Source: Escherichia coli (lineage in GTDB: Bacteria > Pseudomonadota > Gammaproteobacteria > Enterobacterales > Enterobacteriaceae). Taken from it: a DNA stretch of 64,000 bases. Shown here in pieces: positions 1 through 24,831 of this stretch (the first letter of the stretch is position 1; each line of letters opens with the position of its first letter). Where the stretch lies: assembly GCF_003018115.1 (NCBI RefSeq), contig NZ_CP027457.1. The stretch is one strand, 5' to 3'. A program made the position numbers and the translations under genes. A model generated the notes under the pieces. That model worked only from the letters and a program-made list of their open reading frames with translations, was not told the origin of the DNA and made no database searches.

Positions 1-194
1 AAACCATCTGTTTTTGTGGCCGTAAAGCAAGCATGGTGCTGCGTCTTGATCAAGCAGGCAGACCTTATAACGAAGGTGAGCAGGTGGTTATTGGTGGTAA
101 TGAACGATACGTTTCTGTATGCCGTAAACACTATAAAGAGGCGTTACAAGTCGGCTCATTAACGGCTATTCAGGAAAGGCATCGCCACGATTAA
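1..194 (+). CDS. tdk: thymidine kinase, 3' partial (C-terminal zinc-ribbon region)
   Basis: In-frame translation ends ...[24 protein letters not shown]; matches Tdk C-terminus and the K-12 gene order tdk-adhE. Confidence 0.8.
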
Positions 195-442
195 TAAGAA
201 TTTCTTTACTGACAGGGTGAGCAGGGCACTTTTATCCTGTCAGTTCGTTTTACGCACTTCTTCCGGGCTATACACCCTTCGCGGTAGTTTTTAACGCCGC
301 TATACGCCTCACAGAGCGCTTAAGCACCGACGTTGACTAATGACCTGTAAAGTACAATATCGCTGTGTGTAGGCGTTATACATCGCTGCAAATATGATGA
401 AGGCTAATGCTGTCGGTTTATGGAATAGTTGCTTTAGGAAAA

Positions 443-470
443 CAAAAAAACGGCCCCAGAAGGGGCCGTT
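443..470 (-). terminator. intrinsic terminator downstream of adhE
   Basis: GC hairpin cggcccc/ggggccg followed by a T-run on the minus strand, 25 nt after the adhE stop. Confidence 0.6.
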
Positions 471-494
471 TATGTTGCCAGACAGCGCTACTGA

Positions 495-3170
495 TTAAGC
501 GGATTTTTTCGCTTTTTTCTCAGCTTTAGCCGGAGCGGCTTCTTTTTTCGCTGCAGTTTCGCCTTCTACATAATCACGACCGTAGTAGGTATCCAGCAGA
601 ATCTGTTTCAGCTCGGAGATCAGCGGGTAACGCGGGTTAGCGCCAGTGCACTGGTCATCGAATGCATCTTCAGACAGTTTATCCACGTTCGCCAGGAAGT
701 CTGCTTCCTGAACGCCAGCTTCACGGATAGATTTCGGAATACCCAGTTCAGCCTTCAGCGTTTCCAGCCATGCCAGCAGTTTCTCGATCTTAGCAGCAGT
801 ACGGTCGCCCGGTGCGCTCAGACCCAGGTGGTCGGCAATTTCAGCATAACGACGGCGAGCCTGCGGACGGTCATACTGGCTGAATGCAGTCTGCTTGGTC
901 GGGTTGTCGTTCGCATTGTAGCGAATAACGTTACAAATCAGCAGGGCGTTTGCCAGACCGTGCGGAATATGGAACTGGGAACCCAGTTTGTGCGCCATTG
1001 AGTGACATACACCCAGGAAGGCGTTCGCAAACGCGATACCCGCGATAGTCGCTGCACTGTGAACACGTTCACGCGCTACCGGATTTTTAGACCCTTCGTG
1101 GTAGGACGCTGGCAGATATTCTTTCAGCAGTTTCAGTGCCTGCAGAGCCTGACCATCAGAGAACTCAGATGCCAGTACAGAAACATAAGCTTCCATGGCG
1201 TGAGTTACTGCGTCCAGACCACCGAAAGCACACAGGGACTTCGGCATGTCCATAACCAGGTTGGCGTCGACAATCGCCATATCCGGGGTCAGCGCATAGT
1301 CCGCCAGCGGGTATTTCTGACCAGTAGCGTCGTCAGTTACAACCGCAAACGGAGTGACTTCAGAACCTGTACCAGAAGTGGTGGTGACAGCAATCATTTT
1401 CGCTTTCACGCCCATTTTCGGGAACTTGTAGATACGTTTACGGATATCCATAAAGCGCAGCGCCAGCTCTTCGAAGTGAGTTTCCGGATGTTCGTACATA
1501 ACCCACATGATCTTCGCGGCGTCCATCGGGGAACCACCACCCAGCGCGATAATCACGTCTGGTTTGAAGGAGTTTGCCAGTTCTGCACCTTTACGAACGA
1601 TGCTCAGGGTCGGATCCGCTTCTACTTCGAAGAAGACTTCAGTTTCAACGCCTGCTGCTTTCAGTACGGAAGTGATCTGATCAGCATAACCATTGTTGAA
1701 CAGGAAGCGGTCAGTCACGATGAGCGCACGTTTGTGGCCATCAGTAATCACTTCATCCAGCGCGATTGGCAGGGAGCCACGGCGGAAGTAGATAGATTTC
1801 GGAAGTTTGTGCCACAACATGTTTTCAGCTCGCTTAGCAACGGTTTTCTTGTTGATCAGGTGTTTCGGACCAACGTTTTCAGAGATGGAGTTACCACCCC
1901 AGGAACCACAACCCAGAGTCAGGGAAGGTGCGAGTTTGAAGTTATACAGGTCACCGATACCACCCTGAGAAGCCGGGGTGTTAATCAGGATACGAGCCGT
2001 TTTCATTTTCTGACCGAAGTAAGAAACGCGAGCCGGTTGGTTATCCTGGTCAGTGTACAGGCAAGAGGTATGACCGATACCACCCATAGCAACCAGTTTC
2101 TCTGCTTTTTCTACCGCGTCTTCGAAATCTTTAGCGCGGTACATTGCCAGAGTCGGGGACAGTTTTTCATGTGCGAACGGTTCGCTTTCATCAACAACGG
2201 TCACTTCACCGATCAGAATCTTGGTGTTTTCTGGTACAGAGAAGCCTGCCAGTTCAGCAATTTTATAGGCTGGCTGACCAACGATAGCCGCGTTCAGCGC
2301 ACCGTTTTTCAGGATAACATCCTGAACAGCTTTCAGCTCTTTACCCTGCAACAGATAGCCGCCGTGGGTTGCGAAACGTTCACGTACTGCGTCATAAACA
2401 GAGTCAACAACAACAACAGACTGTTCAGAAGCACAGATTACGCCGTTGTCGAAGGTTTTGGACATCAGTACAGATGCAACTGCACGTTTGATATCAGCAG
2501 TTTCATCGATAACAACCGGAGTGTTACCCGCGCCTACGCCGATAGCTGGTTTACCGGAGCTGTATGCGGCTTTAACCATGCCCGGACCACCAGTCGCGAG
2601 GATCAGGTTGATGTCTGGGTGGTGCATCAGTGCGTTAGACAGTTCAACAGAAGGTTGATCGATCCAGCCGATCAGATCTTTCGGAGCACCGGCAGCGATA
2701 GCAGCCTGCAGAACGATATCAGCCGCTTTGTTGGTGGCATCTTTTGCACGCGGGTGCGGGGAGAAGATAATGGCGTTACGGGTCTTCAGGCTGATCAGCG
2801 ATTTGAAGATAGCAGTTGAAGTCGGGTTAGTGGTCGGAACGATACCGCAAATAATACCGATTGGTTCAGCGATAGTGATGGTACCAAAAGTGTCGTCTTC
2901 AGACAGAACACCACAGGTTTTTTCATCTTTATAGGCGTTGTAGATATATTCAGAAGCAAAGTGGTTTTTGATCACTTTATCTTCGACGATACCCATGCCG
3001 GATTCGGCAACGGCCATTTTCGCGAGTGGGATTCGAGCATCTGCAGCAGCCAGAGCGGCGGCGCGGAAGATTTTGTCTACTTGCTCTTGAGTGAAACTGG
3101 CATATTCACGCTGGGCTTTTTTTACACGCTCTACGAGTGCGTTAAGTTCAGCGACATTAGTAACAGCCAT
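495..3170 (-). CDS. adhE: bifunctional acetaldehyde-CoA/alcohol dehydrogenase
   Basis: 891-aa ORF, full-length AdhE sequence ([20 protein letters not shown]...). Confidence 0.97.
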
Positions 3171-3646
3171 AATGCTCTCCTGATAATGTTAAACTTTTTT
3201 AGTAAATCATCTGCTCGAATACGAGAGTATAGTCAGTGCGGTGATGATTTGCTTAACCGATGAAAATCAAAAGCTTACTCGCGCTCACACTCACTGTGAT
3301 TTACTAAAAGAGTTTAAACATTAGAGTTATTATCTCTAATGCGTCACTTCCAGGTGGCGTAAGCAAGATTACTCACTTCTGGGTACTGATTACGTGATCC
3401 AAATCAAATTTTTGCAAAGCTGACACCTTTCAGCATCGCTTTTCGCCATTATAGCTAACAGTTAATAAATTGTAGTATGATTTGATGGCTACATTAGCAT
3501 GTTTTGTACAACTAGATAACAATAACGAATGATAGCAATTTTAAGTAGTTAGGAGGTGAAAAATGCTGTCAAAAGGCGTATTGTCAGCGCGTCTTTTCAA
3601 CCTTATTTATGGCTAACATTATCCGGCTTTTGCTTCGGAGCTAACC

Positions 3647-4294
3647 GTGATTCAGACCCTTTTTGATTTTCCCGTTTACTTCAAATTTTTCATCGGGTTA
3701 TTTGCGCTGGTCAACCCGGTAGGGATTATTCCCGTCTTTATCAGCATGACCAGTTATCAGACAGCGGCAGCGCGAAACAAAACTAACCTTACAGCCAACC
3801 TGTCTGTGGCCATTATCTTGTGGATCTCGCTTTTTCTCGGCGACACGATTCTACAACTTTTTGGTATATCAATTGATTCGTTCCGTATCGCCGGGGGTAT
3901 CCTGGTGGTGACAATAGCGATGTCAATGATCAGCGGCAAGCTTGGCGAGGATAAACAGAACAAGCAAGAAAAATCAGAAACCGCGGTACGTGAAAGCATT
4001 GGTGTGGTGCCACTGGCGTTGCCGTTGATGGCGGGGCCAGGGGCGATCAGTTCTACCATCGTCTGGGGTACGCGTTATCACAGCATTAGCTATCTGTTTG
4101 GTTTCTTTGTGGCTATTGCATTGTTCGCTTTATGTTGCTGGGGATTGTTCCGCATGGCACCGTGGCTGGTACGGGTTTTACGCCAGACCGGCATCAACGT
4201 GATTACGCGTATTATGGGGCTATTGCTGATGGCATTGGGGATTGAATTTATCGTTACTGGTATTAAGGGGATTTTCCCCGGCCTGCTTAATTAA
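3647..4294 (+). CDS. ychE: MarC-family inner membrane protein
   Basis: 215-aa multi-TM ORF, GTG start, conserved position between adhE and oppA. Confidence 0.85.
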   Translation: MIQTLFDFPVYFKFFIGLFALVNPVGIIPVFISMTSYQTAAARNKTNLTANLSVAIILWISLFLGDTILQLFGISIDSFRIAGGILVVTIAMSMISGKLGEDKQNKQEKSETAVRESIGVVPLALPLMAGPGAISSTIVWGTRYHSISYLFGFFVAIALFALCCWGLFRMAPWLVRVLRQTGINVITRIMGLLLMALGIEFIVTGIKGIFPGLLN

Positions 4295-5031
4295 TTCCTC
4301 TCAAATGAAACGGAGCTGCCATGCTCCGTTTACTTCGTCATTATTTTTACTTTGTTCCTGCGCAGTTATCAAAAGCAAAAGGAATAGGTAAAAATATTCT
4401 TCTCAAATTACAGTTAGTTATAAGGATTTCCTTAACTGCTTCTCTTCACCATCATGTTATTTTCGCCACATCATAATCCTGGGCTTGCTGAAGAATAATT
4501 GAAATGATATTAGTAATTCCACTGCCTTTGGTAGAGGAAAGTGCTAAATAATAATCAATTGTTAAATTATTGTGCATTTCACTACTGGAACTGTAATCAG
4601 AAAAGATAGACATGCTTAACCAATCTCTATTTGATTGAATTGAAAGATGTTTGTTAAGACATGGATGCAAGCTATAGATTCTGATACGGTCAATAAAAGA
4701 GAATTGCTTAACAATTTTGCAAAATGTATTGGCGAGTAAGAAGCGCATTTGGTACTTTCCGGGCAACCGCCAGGCGATTCTTTATTGGTAATGAGAATAA
4801 TTAACAATTAAAGAGCGTCGTGAAAGAATAATGTGTCTCGACAGGGGAGACACAGTACGAATCGACATAAGGTGATCGTCTGAATCACCAGAATAAATAA
4901 AGTCGGTGATAGCAATACGTAACGATAAAGTAACCTGACAGCAGAAAGTCTCCGAGCCTGTGCAGGGTCCCAATCCGGGATTACACATGCTGGTTAATAC
5001 CAGTAATTATAATGAGGGAGTCCAAAAAACA

Positions 5032-22552: not shown

Positions 22553-22741
22553 TTATCCAGCCGGTATTTCGTTATTCAGGTACAGCGATACTTTGTTTAA
22601 CGGGAGACATTCACCGGAAATTTTTTGCTCGTCTCTTGCCTGATGGCAGGATTCTTTACTGGCATAAATTCCGGTAATCACTTTCTGTGGCTCACCTGTT
22701 ATCAGAAAAACCGTCATCATCAGTGTAAACGCTGAACTCAC
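22553..22741 (-). CDS. hypothetical small phage protein (early-left operon)
   Basis: 62-aa ORF with a hydrophobic N-terminus; position equivalent to kil/sieB-type genes; no family recognised. Confidence 0.35.
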   Translation of the reverse strand: MSSAFTLMMTVFLITGEPQKVITGIYASKESCHQARDEQKISGECLPLNKVSLYLNNEIPAG

Positions 22742-22926
22742 TGCTGCCCTCCGAAAATGCCAAGTTCAAGAAGGGCAATTCTGGAGAGTATGGAATTATC
22801 ATTGAGAAGATAAGGCTCATATTTTCTCATCCTGATGGCGTCCTCAGTAAACTCCCGGTTACTGAGCAGAATACCAATATTAAAACACCCTTCAGACGTA
22901 TTAACGTTTGGTAGTGACGTTTCCAT
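22738..22926 (-). CDS. hypothetical small phage protein (early-left operon)
   Basis: 62-aa ORF, 4-nt overlap with the downstream ORF. Confidence 0.35.
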   Translation of the reverse strand: METSLPNVNTSEGCFNIGILLSNREFTEDAIRMRKYEPYLLNDNSILSRIALLELGIFGGQQ

Positions 22927-23475
22927 TATCGCGTCCTCAACAATGAATTTTGTGATGTGGTGCCTGGTGCCTCCAGGTGACGTTAACCAGTTAACAATTA
23001 ACGCCGGATTGTTAGTTGATGTCTGTTACGCCAGTAAAAGACCGCTTGTTTTAACTGTTCCGCGTGCGCTTAGCCGCATTCACCGCATCACAAAATACAC
23101 TTTAAAAATGGCGGATATCCATTTCCGCCGAATCACCAGAAAAGTGATAACAGAGGTTGTTGTGGCGGTGTTGTCACTCAGGCGCATGGTCAACCTGACA
23201 ACCCGGTGCATTTTCTGGAGCAATGGAGGAAGCCCCAGCCATACTTACCGCCGCGCCATTTCGCGGATTGCCACAACCGGAAGCGCACGATCGAATTAAA
23301 TTTAACGACAAGCCTTATATTCTCGCCGTGCGCTTTCGTGTTATGCCCTGACTTTTCAGGGATATGTTCTTTCAGCAAACTGTCAGTGCCGGATTCTTAT
23401 CCGTGTCCGGCGCACGACCACACGTGACAGCGTGTTGGTCTCCATTTTTAACCCAGAACCTCTATGGAGGATAAA

Positions 23476-23778
23476 ATGCACTCTAAATCAAATCGATATT
23501 ATGTTCATGTGCAGTTATTTGAAGCAACAATGGAACAGGAGAAAAAGTTCGAGACTCTGATGCCAAATTTTAAATACTCCAGGATGATTAATGAAGGTGA
23601 CGTTGAATATAAATTGTTGCCAGGGGCATACGTTATTCAGTCAACGCTCAATTCGAATCAAATACTTGAACAAACCTTTTCTGTTGCTAATTCAGTTGGT
23701 GTTAATGCTCACATTTTTGTTTGCCCTTATGATGAAAGTGCAACCCTTTTGCCTTGTGCTGATTTTGGCACTTACTAA
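23476..23778 (+). CDS. hypothetical protein, AT-rich, opposite strand to the early-left operon
   Basis: Strong Shine-Dalgarno GGAGGA 4 nt upstream of the ATG; 100 aa; no family recognised. Confidence 0.45.
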   Translation: MHSKSNRYYVHVQLFEATMEQEKKFETLMPNFKYSRMINEGDVEYKLLPGAYVIQSTLNSNQILEQTFSVANSVGVNAHIFVCPYDESATLLPCADFGTY

Positions 23779-24082
23779 CTAAATTTAATTTATGTTCAAG
23801 TTCGGCTATTTGCATACGTAGTGCTTTAACCATTGTTTCATGATAAATCTCACTCACTCCACCTGGGTGTGGGGTGAATTTAGGTGAATAATCTTTGTTT
23901 TCAGAACTCAGCTTCTCTTCGTACAGCTTGATAAAGGCATTACGCACATTATGGGATATATTGTCGATGGTTTCTTTTTCTACGGTACTCAGGTCAAGAG
24001 TCGCCAGTTGAGAACGAACTATATTCGCTGCCATATCCTGGAATGGTACTGGTAAATCTTTAAATTCCATCGTCAACCTCAT
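23702..24082 (-). CDS. hypothetical phage protein
   Basis: 126-aa ORF; 3' end overlaps the convergent plus-strand ORF. Confidence 0.4.
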   Translation of the reverse strand: MRLTMEFKDLPVPFQDMAANIVRSQLATLDLSTVEKETIDNISHNVRNAFIKLYEEKLSSENKDYSPKFTPHPGGVSEIYHETMVKALRMQIAELEHKLNLVSKCQNQHKAKGLHFHHKGKQKCEH

Positions 24083-24390
24083 CAGTCAGTGTTTCTGGCT
24101 AACCAGCGATGCGCGCCAGCTTCAGTTTTAAACGTTTTGCTTCTGGTATACGTCATCGCGGTAAACGTGCCGTCCTGGTTAGGGAACACACCGCATACCA
24201 GAGATTCGTTGTTGCCAAGATTGAGTGTATCCATGTTGACCTCATTTGCCCTTAACGCCGGGTAGCGGAACTGTTTGCTGAGAACACCGTGCGGTGTCTT
24301 GATGGATTGTAATTTAGTTTTCTCATGGTGCTTGGTCAAGTGTTTTTGATGAGAAAACTCAACATTTAATGCAAAACAAAGCCAATACAT
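24082..24390 (-). CDS. hypothetical phage protein immediately downstream of the repressor
   Basis: 102-aa ORF co-oriented with the repressor. Confidence 0.4.
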   Translation of the reverse strand: MYWLCFALNVEFSHQKHLTKHHEKTKLQSIKTPHGVLSKQFRYPALRANEVNMDTLNLGNNESLVCGVFPNQDGTFTAMTYTRSKTFKTEAGAHRWLARNTD

Positions 24391-24423: not shown

Positions 24424-24831
24424 TTATTGATGTTTGTTACGTTTGCGAGCTTCTAGTAGCTCGGTGAATAGGCGATTAAAATTCTCAACGCGGGCACGGA
24501 GTTCGCTGATCTGTGCTTGCTGCTCTGATTTTGGAAGTGCGCGATACAATCGCAACATCTCCGACTCATCTTCCGATAAGTCTAAGGCGCTGTTGAGTGC
24601 AACTGGTGGATCTGGTGTTTTATCCTCGTCACCAAACAGTATCCAAGTTGGTGAACATTGCAATACCTCAGCCAGGCGATGCAAATTTTGCCCGCGCGGG
24701 GCTGTATGGTCGCTTTCCCATAGTGAAATTGATGAGCCAGATACACCAGCAGCTTTGCTTAAATCGTTTTGACTTAAACCAACCTGTTTGCGTCTTTCTC
24801 TAATTCGTTGACCTAAAGTTTTCTCGTTCAT
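24424..24831 (-). CDS. phage repressor, XRE-family HTH (RacR/DicA-like; no S24 peptidase domain)
   Basis: N-terminal HTH LGQRIRERRKQVGLSQNDLSKAAGVSGSSISLWE; divergent from the Cro-like gene. Confidence 0.85.
   Translation of the reverse strand: MNEKTLGQRIRERRKQVGLSQNDLSKAAGVSGSSISLWESDHTAPRGQNLHRLAEVLQCSPTWILFGDEDKTPDPPVALNSALDLSEDESEMLRLYRALPKSEQQAQISELRARVENFNRLFTELLEARKRNKHQ

What the first reader, a model, noticed from the sequence alone, without database searches (positions are those of the whole stretch)
23464..24082. Plus-strand AT-rich ORF embedded in the minus-strand early-left operon
A 100-aa ORF with a strong Shine-Dalgarno is transcribed against the flow of the early-left operon and its 3' end overlaps a convergent minus-strand ORF by ~77 bp. 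This is the region where lambdoid phages often carry exclusion or anti-defence cargo. No family is recognisable.
Basis: seen in the sequence. Interest (0 to 1): 0.4.

Follow-up and report, generated by a model that had tools for sequence, protein, structure and literature searches.

The report
A YmfI-family prophage cargo gene
The plus-strand ORF is a real, conserved small prophage gene, a divergent relative of the uncharacterised E. coli e14 gene ymfI with a predicted GhoS-like fold, and it always travels with the tail end of the gene it overlaps; what it does is still unknown.

Summary
A 100-aa ORF (23476-23778, +; GGAGG at 23467-23471; 36% GC against about 47% in the flanks) lies against the flow of the early-left operon of a DicB-type lambdoid prophage at ompW. 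Its last 77 bp overlap a convergent 122-aa ORF.

"No family recognisable" is wrong. The ORF matches PHROG 8894 (E 6e-34) and NCBIfam YmfI_phage (E 8e-32, below the naming cut-off), and is 57% identical to e14 YmfI.

In all 41 IMG/VR loci that carry the conserved YmfJ-type C-terminal motif (YH[E/D]TMVKALR), a YmfI gene converges on it. That motif is fused to at least three unrelated N-termini and is missing where YmfI is missing.

The 64-nt leader up to the ATG occurs in 652 E. coli genomes, the ORF in 64. In at least one other prophage the leader precedes a different cargo gene, so this is a swappable cargo slot.

Function and expression are untested. It is a new member of a known but uncharacterised family, of moderate interest.

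The parts
23476..23778 (+). YmfI-family CDS (100 aa plus stop), predicted GhoS-like beta-alpha-beta-beta-alpha-beta fold
23467..23471 (+). Shine-Dalgarno GGAGG, 4 nt before the ATG
   Evidence: Read from the sequence. Identical in all alleles and in the alternative-cargo locus L010.
23415..23475 (+). Conserved leader shared with other cargo genes. It contains a 10-bp hairpin (23416-23440) followed by a U-rich run, and a predicted second stem that pairs the SD and AUG.
   Evidence: Identical up to the ATG in L010, which carries a different cargo, and absent from L011. Present in 652 of 5426 E. coli genomes. Fold z-score -2.9. Its function is unknown.
23702..24070 (-). Convergent early-left ORF (122 aa; the longest reading starts at 24082). 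It is a mosaic: the N-terminal 60 or so residues are of the 'MEFKDLP' type, and the C-terminal part is of the YmfJ type.
   Evidence: PGAP CDS WP_001365839.1. Residues 1-72 match phrog_6937/1363/2151. Residues 65-95 align to e14 YmfJ 61-94, 47% identity, E 4e-8.
23783..23887 (-). YmfJ-type C-terminal module (TP.P..G.V..IYHETMVKALR..I..L), the part that always accompanies ymfI. The core 20 codons lie at 23798-23857.
   Evidence: Shared by partners with three unrelated N-termini. pS 0.7-0.95 against pN 0.13-0.27. All 41 IMG/VR motif loci carry a convergent YmfI gene. Absent where ymfI is absent.
23702..23782 (-). Non-conserved tail of the minus-strand ORF. It reads antisense through the 3' end of the YmfI-like gene and creates the 77-bp overlap.
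   Evidence: The O157/O111 allele has a stop, so its ORF is 101 aa with a 14-bp overlap. The tail sequence differs in L002.
24311..24339 (-). pL-like promoter match (TTGACC-17-TAAATT) that would drive the early-left operon through the antisense of the YmfI-like gene
   Evidence: Consensus scan only. It lies between the cI-like repressor gene (24424-24831) and the DUF1391 gene.

Best explanation
The ORF is a genuine protein-coding cargo gene of the prophage and a divergent member of the YmfI family, whose type gene is ymfI of the E. coli K-12 e14 prophage. Its product is predicted to be a small soluble alpha/beta protein. Its closest solved structural neighbour is GhoS, the RNase antitoxin of the type V GhoST system, which is Cas2-like. 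The gene is inherited as an AT-rich cassette of about 470 bp (roughly 23418-23890). The cassette also encodes, on the other strand, the last 35-40 conserved residues of the early-left gene that converges on it (the YmfJ-type module). In this prophage type the cassette sits behind a conserved 60-nt leader with SD and ATG, and other prophages use the same leader for a different cargo. Inferred, not shown: the gene has its own weak transcription in the lysogen, and its mRNA overlaps the early-left transcript. That arrangement is reported as an 'excludon' for ymfI-ymfJ in K-12. On induction, strong pL transcription through the antisense of the gene would then turn it down. The protein most likely acts on RNA, by binding or cleavage as its GhoS/Cas2-like fold suggests, or on the YmfJ-type module it always accompanies. 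Rough likelihoods: real gene of the YmfI family 0.95; GhoS-like fold or distant homology 0.8; obligate cassette with the YmfJ-type module 0.85; lysogen-expressed and antagonised by pL 0.4; RNA-directed activity 0.3.
For: Family: PHROG 8894, E 6e-34. NCBIfam YmfI_phage, E 8e-32 over 88 of 89 profile positions. 57% identity to e14 YmfI. Relatives are named YmfI family in Escherichia, Klebsiella, Enterobacter and Edwardsiella, with unnamed relatives in Salmonella and Raoultella.

Coding: against e14 ymfI, synonymous sites are saturated and dN is 0.38. An in-frame 3-nt indel separates alleles.

Cassette: in 51 of 52 loci examined the gene converges on and overlaps a minus-strand ORF, and 44 of those partners carry the exact motif. 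The partners have three unrelated N-termini but one C-terminal module. The module is under purifying selection at the protein level. The reciprocal IMG/VR scan found YmfI in 41 of 41 motif loci. The module is absent when ymfI is absent.

Slot: the leader is identical up to the ATG in front of a different cargo, and it occurs in 652 genomes against 64 for the ORF.

Expression of the homologue: ymfI-ymfJ is listed as a convergent excludon seen in at least 50% of 58 MG1655 RNA-seq sets (PMC12288877). In SOS, ymfJ rises to about log2 4.8 and ymfI to about 2 (PMC11002266).
Against: No sigma-70 consensus promoter was found upstream of the gene, either here or in three other YmfI loci. A terminator-like hairpin sits just before the SD. 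No expression data exist for this copy.

The window protein itself gets no Pfam GhoS hit. Profile-profile comparison with GhoS is not significant (E 0.17). GhoS Arg28, reported as the most important residue for its RNase activity (PMC4010927), aligns to Glu26 here and to His in the bridging members. No GhoT-like toxin gene follows.

dN/dS among the close alleles is only 0.4-0.7, based on few changes.

A fused-chain AF2 run of YmfI with the partner's C-terminus gave no confident complex: pTM 0.52, helix pLDDT 46-76.

The co-inheritance could partly reflect physical overlap rather than function.
Confidence: 0.55

Rival explanations
1. It is superinfection-exclusion or anti-defence cargo. A lysogen-expressed gene on the opposite strand of the pL operon would protect the lysogen or the phage, as sieB does in Rac, lambda and P22.
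For: The position and orientation match. sieB-ydaF of Rac appears in the same list of convergent excludons as ymfI-ymfJ. The DNA is AT-rich and moron-like. The slot is swappable, with a conserved leader and alternative cargo. The gene is found in prophages and is absent from 50,697 sequenced phage records.
Against: There is no similarity to SieB or to any PADLOC defence model. The model is a soluble alpha/beta protein, not a membrane protein. No phenotype is known: e14 is often lost without a reported YmfI-related effect.
Confidence: 0.2
2. It is a two-gene toxin-antitoxin-like or effector-immunity pair. The YmfJ-type C-terminal module of the induced early-left protein would be an effector, and YmfI its cognate neutraliser or partner. 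The neutraliser could act on the protein or, in type V style, on the mRNA. The logic resembles polymorphic C-terminal domains with adjacent immunity genes.
For: The module and ymfI co-occur strictly (41 of 41) across three different N-terminal contexts. The whole unit, C-terminus plus opposite-strand gene, is swapped for another unit in L010. The predicted fold resembles the type V antitoxin GhoS.
Against: The fused AF2 prediction gives no confident interface. The module is probably a single helix of about 35 residues. In the cited SOS study YmfJ protein rose by log2 3.81, and no toxicity of YmfJ was found in the papers consulted. The two most distant family members (L019, L021) lack the module. 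GhoS Arg28 is not conserved.
Confidence: 0.2
3. It is a chance or antisense ORF with no protein product. The open frame would be a by-product of the AT-rich 3' region of the early-left gene, or only the antisense RNA would matter.
For: PGAP does not call the ORF in the 100%-identical genome or in several others. dN/dS among close alleles is 0.4-0.7. No promoter was found.
Against: The frame is kept open at the same length from 99% down to about 30% identity in several genera. Synonymous sites are saturated with dN 0.38 against e14. The family yields a confident, compact fold. PGAP does annotate it in O157:H7 (WP_000555741.1), and NCBI has a curated family model for it. Only 0.4% of shuffles reach this ORF length.
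Confidence: 0.04

Closest known systems
YmfI of the E. coli K-12 e14 prophage (b1143; NCBIfam NF051477 'YmfI family phage protein'; PHROG 8894)
   Same: Homologous over the whole 90-residue core (57% identity, E 2e-38). Same place in the prophage: opposite strand of the early-left operon, next to the repressor region. Same convergent 3' overlap with a gene that ends in the YmfJ-type module.
   Different: It scores below the curated equivalog cut-off (109.6 against 140 bits). It has 5 extra N-terminal residues and lacks the 20-residue C-terminal tail (LVGNDFVHHDLTPKPIKLDS) of e14-type YmfI. It sits in a different prophage backbone (DicB/ompW type), behind a different leader, and its partner has a different N-terminal domain. 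YmfI itself has no known function.
GhoS (YjdK), antitoxin endoribonuclease of the type V GhoT/GhoS system (PDB 2LLZ; Pfam PF11080)
   Different: 13% identity. There is no direct HMM or profile match for this protein. Arg28 aligns to Glu. There is no downstream ghoT-like membrane-toxin gene. It is encoded in a prophage, convergent with a phage gene, rather than in a chromosomal ghoST operon.
sieB of Rac, lambda and P22 (superinfection exclusion gene on the opposite strand of the pL operon)
   Same: Same kind of position and orientation within the early-left operon. The sieB-ydaF pair is listed beside ymfI-ymfJ as a convergent excludon in K-12. That sieB lies opposite to pL genes in lambda and P22 is from my own knowledge.
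   Different: No sequence or fold relation. SieB is a larger membrane protein. Exclusion activity has not been tested for YmfI.
Cas2 / VapD-type small ferredoxin-like nucleases
   Different: A much weaker match than GhoS. There is no CRISPR context.

Membership tests
YmfI family phage protein (NCBIfam NF051477 / PHROG 8894) | Significant full-length match to the family profile | tested here: met
   NF051477: E 8.1e-32, residues 6-93 on profile positions 2-89 of 89. PHROG 8894: E 6e-34.
YmfI family phage protein (NCBIfam NF051477 / PHROG 8894) | Score above NCBI's curated equivalog cut-off (140 bits) | tested here: not met
   109.6 bits. The protein is a divergent subfamily, so PGAP labels it 'hypothetical protein' or does not call it.
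YmfI family phage protein (NCBIfam NF051477 / PHROG 8894) | Genomic context like e14 ymfI: opposite strand of the early-left operon, convergent with and overlapping a YmfJ-type gene. This is my working definition from the loci, not a curated one. | tested here: met
GhoS (Pfam PF11080), type V antitoxin | Match to the Pfam GhoS model above its gathering score | tested here: not met
   No hit for the window protein at E<=5. Only the distant member P0010 passes, with 28.8 bits.
GhoS (Pfam PF11080), type V antitoxin | GhoS-type ferredoxin-like fold | tested here: met
   [not shown]
GhoS (Pfam PF11080), type V antitoxin | Catalytic Arg28, reported as the most important residue for RNase activity (PMC4010927) | tested here: not met
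   It aligns to Glu26 by hhalign, hmmsearch and the register of secondary structure. All of these alignments are weak.
GhoS (Pfam PF11080), type V antitoxin | Co-transcribed downstream gene for a small membrane toxin (GhoT) | tested here: not met
   The downstream plus strand is antisense to the conserved partner ORF. The only nested hydrophobic ORF (23591-23782) is not conserved.
GhoS (Pfam PF11080), type V antitoxin | Sequence-specific cleavage of a toxin mRNA | not testable with these tools
   Needs purified protein and RNA substrates.
SieB superinfection exclusion proteins | Sequence similarity to SieB and a membrane-protein character | tested here: not met
   No Pfam hit other than noise. 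The model is a compact soluble alpha/beta domain.
Convergent excludon (overlapping antisense transcription units) | Overlapping transcripts from the two convergent genes | not testable with these tools
   The CDSs overlap by 77 bp, so the transcripts must overlap if both genes are transcribed. Transcript overlap is reported for the K-12 homologues ymfI-ymfJ (PMC12288877). There are no data for this prophage.
Known anti-phage defence systems (PADLOC-DB 2.0) | Match to any defence-protein model | tested here: not met
   No hits for YmfI-like, its partner, e14 YmfI, e14 YmfJ or P0010.

The most novel reading that the evidence does not exclude
YmfI plus the YmfJ-type C-terminal module could be an undescribed two-component phage system. 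A GhoS-fold protein made in the lysogen would counteract, by RNA cleavage or by binding, an effector module that is grafted onto different early-left proteins and released on induction. That would be a prophage-borne, convergently encoded relative of type V toxin-antitoxin logic. It sits in a cassette-exchange slot whose conserved leader serves several alternative cargo pairs.
Probability: 0.2. Interest if true: 0.65.

Novelty: new member of a known kind. Interest (0 to 1): 0.4.

Why it matters
ymfI is one of the K-12 'y-genes' with no assigned function. This work gives three testable leads. First, the predicted fold is closest to GhoS, the only characterised type V antitoxin. Second, the gene is genetically coupled to a short, highly conserved C-terminal module of the SOS-induced gene ymfJ and its mosaics. 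Third, it sits in a slot in DicB-type prophages, many of them in STEC strains, where a fixed leader precedes interchangeable opposite-strand cargo. If the pair proves to be a regulatory or toxin-antitoxin-like unit, it would explain a recurrent feature of enterobacterial prophage early-left regions and would extend the small GhoS family to phages. If not, the gene remains an ordinary uncharacterised moron.

Tried and rejected
1. tblastn of the protein and of the YmfJ-type motif against 50,697 phage records found nothing. The family appears confined to prophages and IMG/VR proviruses.

2. The first word-indexed protein search found only 4 near-identical clusters. The exhaustive HMMER search was needed to reach the family.

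3. The YmfI profile gave no significant sequence hit against PDB sequences. hhalign against GhoS, as a single sequence or as a shallow alignment, was not significant. The GhoS homologues retrieved were too similar to one another to build a deep profile.

4. PADLOC gave no hits. BFVD viral structures gave no hit at E<=1e-3. The afdb50 library was unavailable.

5. Promoter and terminator consensus scans gave nothing useful upstream or downstream of ymfI in four loci.

6. A nested hydrophobic +1-frame ORF (23591-23782), considered as a GhoT-like toxin candidate, is truncated or absent in relatives and was rejected.

7. A fused-chain AF2 run (YmfI, GS linker, partner C-terminus) tested for a complex. 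It gave pTM 0.52 and low helix confidence. No PAE is available, so the result is inconclusive.

8. Literature: papers that mention ymfI or ymfJ give only expression tables or e14 deletion lists. No paper mentions a GhoS-like phage protein. The original GhoS paper is not held.

9. Pfam and PHROG scans of the alternative cargo pair in L010 returned only families of unknown function.

Full report
**Where the window comes from.** The region is 100% identical to the chromosome of E. coli isolate 07-4299. There it lies in a lambdoid prophage integrated next to ompW. Around the finding, the genes on the minus strand are, from right to left:
- a cI-like HTH repressor (24424-24831)
- a DUF1391/YdfA-like gene (24085-24237)
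- a 122-aa hypothetical gene (23702-24070)
- about 770 bp without annotated genes
- dicB (22738-22926)
- a DUF1482 gene
- an 823-aa exonuclease, then xis and int

Cro-, YdaT-, O- and DnaC-like genes run rightward. A pL-like promoter match lies at 24339-24311 on the minus strand. The finding therefore does sit inside the early-left operon.

**The observation.** An ORF runs on the plus strand from ATG 23476 to the stop at 23778 (100 aa). GGAGG lies 4 nt upstream. An in-frame ATG at 23464 would add four residues, but it overlaps the SD. The ORF has 36% GC against about 47% on either side. Its last 77 bp overlap the 3' end of the convergent 122-aa ORF. Only 20 of 5000 shuffles of the local 500 nt gave an ORF this long.

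**It is a real gene of a recognisable family.**
- The product matches PHROG 8894 end to end (E 6e-34).
- It matches NCBIfam NF051477 'YmfI family phage protein' (E 8e-32). The score of 109.6 bits is below the 140-bit equivalog cut-off. That explains why PGAP calls it hypothetical in O157:H7 (WP_000555741.1) or skips it.
- It is 57% identical to YmfI of e14-type prophages.
- The word-indexed search found only near-identical copies. The exhaustive HMMER search and a profile search then recovered about 40 clusters of 92-113 aa. They come from Escherichia, Klebsiella, Enterobacter, Salmonella, Raoultella and Edwardsiella, and identity falls to about 30%.
- Against e14 ymfI, synonymous sites are saturated while dN is 0.38.
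- Among the three close alleles dN/dS is 0.4-0.7, based on few substitutions. One allele difference is an in-frame 3-nt indel.
- The exact ORF type occurs in 64 of 5426 complete E. coli genomes, mostly STEC and bovine isolates.

The family itself, however, has no known function. The papers that mention ymfI give only expression values or e14 deletion lists.

**Fold.** AlphaFold2 on a 26-sequence family alignment gives a confident compact model (pLDDT 84, pTM 0.71). The order of elements is beta1-alpha1-beta2-beta2'-beta3-alpha2-beta4.
- GhoS is the endoribonuclease antitoxin of the type V GhoT/GhoS system.
- One distant family member, P0010, links the two families by sequence. It scores 58 bits on YmfI_phage and 28.8 bits on Pfam GhoS, whose gathering score is 21.
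- The link is weak for the window protein itself. It has no Pfam GhoS hit. The family profile finds nothing significant in PDB sequences. hhalign against a shallow GhoS alignment gives E 0.17.
- In the register given by hhalign, by hmmsearch and by the secondary structure, GhoS Arg28 falls on Glu26 here, and on His in the two bridging members. Arg28 is described as the most important residue for GhoS RNase activity (PMC4010927).
- No GhoT-like gene follows. The one nested hydrophobic ORF is not conserved.

So the protein is GhoS-like in predicted fold and probably a distant homologue. It is not a GhoS-type antitoxin by the defining features I could test.

**The gene travels with the tail of its neighbour.** I examined 52 loci: the window, E. 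coli genomes, metagenome contigs and 43 IMG/VR proviruses.
- In 51 of them the YmfI gene converges on a minus-strand ORF of about 100-130 aa and overlaps it by 14-90 bp. That ORF lies one to three genes downstream of the repressor gene.
- These partners have at least three unrelated N-terminal parts:
  - the 'MEFKDLP...' type, as here
  - the e14 YmfJ type 'MNEQ.LKHVIALLLEDAK...'
  - a coiled-coil type 'MESPKEPTII...'
- All of these types end in the same 35-40 residues, TP.P..G.V..(V/I)YH(E/D)TMVKALR(I/M).(L/I)..L.
- In the window this module lies at about 23783-23887, just outside the overlap.
- Over its 20 core codons, pS is 0.7-0.95 and pN is 0.13-0.27 between distant loci. It is therefore conserved as protein, not as a 3' UTR of ymfI.
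- A reciprocal scan of IMG/VR for H[ED]TMVK[AC] returned 41 loci. All 41 carry a convergent YmfI gene. The two YmfI proviruses that this scan missed have variant motifs (YHETLVKAL and YHDTMIKCL).
- Prophages of the same backbone that lack ymfI have partners with the same N-terminus but a different C-terminus (L010, L011).
- Only the two most distant family members lack the module (L019, L021).
- The 27-residue tail that creates the 77-bp overlap in the window is not conserved. The O157/O111 allele has a stop codon that leaves a 14-bp overlap.

The overlap as such is therefore a family trait, but its length and the overlapped peptide are incidental.

**A cargo slot with a fixed leader.** I aligned the window with two prophages of the same type.
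- Sequence is shared up to about 23417 with prophages that have no plus-strand gene (L011, and K-12 Qin).
- Homology resumes at about residue 60 of the partner, near 23890.
- The 64-nt leader is present in 652 of 5426 E. coli genomes, ten times more than the YmfI-like ORF.

So the swappable unit is the plus-strand cargo together with the C-terminus of the early-left protein. It is flanked by conserved sequence on both sides. PADLOC has no match.

**Expression and mechanism (inferred).**
- I could not find a sigma-70 consensus promoter upstream of ymfI, either here or in three other loci.
- The leader folds into a 10-bp hairpin (23416-23440) followed by UCCAUUUUU. A second predicted stem pairs the SD and the AUG (z -2.9).
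- The hairpin loop is inverted in a related allele while the stem is kept. What this element does is unexplained.
- For the K-12 homologues, a published RNA-seq survey lists ymfI-ymfJ (and Rac sieB-ydaF) among convergent gene pairs with overlapping transcripts in at least half of 58 data sets (PMC12288877).
- In an SOS time course, ymfJ rises by about log2 4.8 and the YmfJ protein rises by log2 3.81, while ymfI rises only to about 2 (PMC11002266).

The most economical reading has four steps. The gene is made at a low level in the lysogen. Its transcript is antisense to the early-left mRNA. Induction of pL interferes with it. The GhoS/Cas2-like protein then acts on RNA or on the YmfJ-type module. 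A fused-chain AlphaFold test for a YmfI-module complex was not confident (pTM 0.52, helix pLDDT 46-76, no PAE). A direct interaction is therefore neither supported nor excluded.

**Verdict.** The ORF is real and conserved, and it belongs to a named but uncharacterised family. What I did not find reported in the library I could search is threefold: the GhoS-like predicted fold, the strict coupling to the YmfJ-type C-terminal module, and the leader-defined cargo slot. These make a K-12 y-gene testable, but they do not yet show a new mechanism. Novelty: a new, divergent member of a known kind. Interest: 0.4.

Noticed in passing
window about 23103-23147 (minus strand): The DicF sRNA upstream of dicB is a deletion variant. 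It keeps the 5' UUUCUGGUGA and a GGCGG...CCGCC-UUUUU terminator, but it lacks about 17 nt of the central stem-loop of K-12 DicF. Rfam DicF does not detect it even at E<=1. The O157 prophage with the 96% YmfI allele has a canonical DicF (76.7 bits). The variant still folds into two hairpins (z -3.6).
   Followed up: partly
[not shown]
   Followed up: partly
window 23421-23434, compared with L002 columns 761-775 of alignment A3: A 14-nt segment (CACGTGACAGCGTG) is exactly reverse-complemented in a related allele (CACGCTGTCACGTG). This inverts the hairpin loop while keeping the stem. It could be a small inversion at an inverted repeat, or selection for the stem.
   Followed up: no
window 23891-24070 (minus strand), and L010, L011: The N-terminal 60 or so residues 'MEFKDLP...' of the early-left ORF form a constant domain. 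It is joined to several unrelated C-termini (phrog_6937 124 aa, phrog_1363 139 aa, phrog_2151 212 aa, phrog_9419 64 aa), so this is a polymorphic-C-terminus protein family of unknown function.
   Followed up: partly
window 22894-23111 (minus strand): The spacer between the DicF-like RNA and dicB gives a sub-threshold match to the Salmonella sRNA family STnc100 (33 bits, gathering score 47, E 1.3e-4). It is about 95% conserved with K-12 Qin.
   Followed up: no
window 23214-23351 (plus strand), hairpin 23346-23361: PGAP annotates a 45-aa plus-strand hypothetical protein here in strain RM10466 (WP_001378876.1). It ends at a terminator-like hairpin, CCCTGACTTTTCAGGG. The region is conserved even in K-12 Qin, where it is intergenic. 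Whether it is coding is unverified.
   Followed up: no
window 23591-23782 (plus strand, +1 frame inside the YmfI-like gene): A nested 63-aa ORF has a very hydrophobic C-terminal half. A frameshifted database protein (P0004) fuses it to YmfI. It is truncated or absent in relatives, so it is probably a by-product of T-rich sequence.
   Followed up: yes
L002 7186-7657 and L003 11127-12086 (related ompW prophages): Related prophages that carry the 80%-identical YmfI allele have different immunity regions. One has a ParE/PaaA2 toxin-antitoxin pair next to the repressor. Another has a SIR2-like gene downstream of the replication genes.
   Followed up: no
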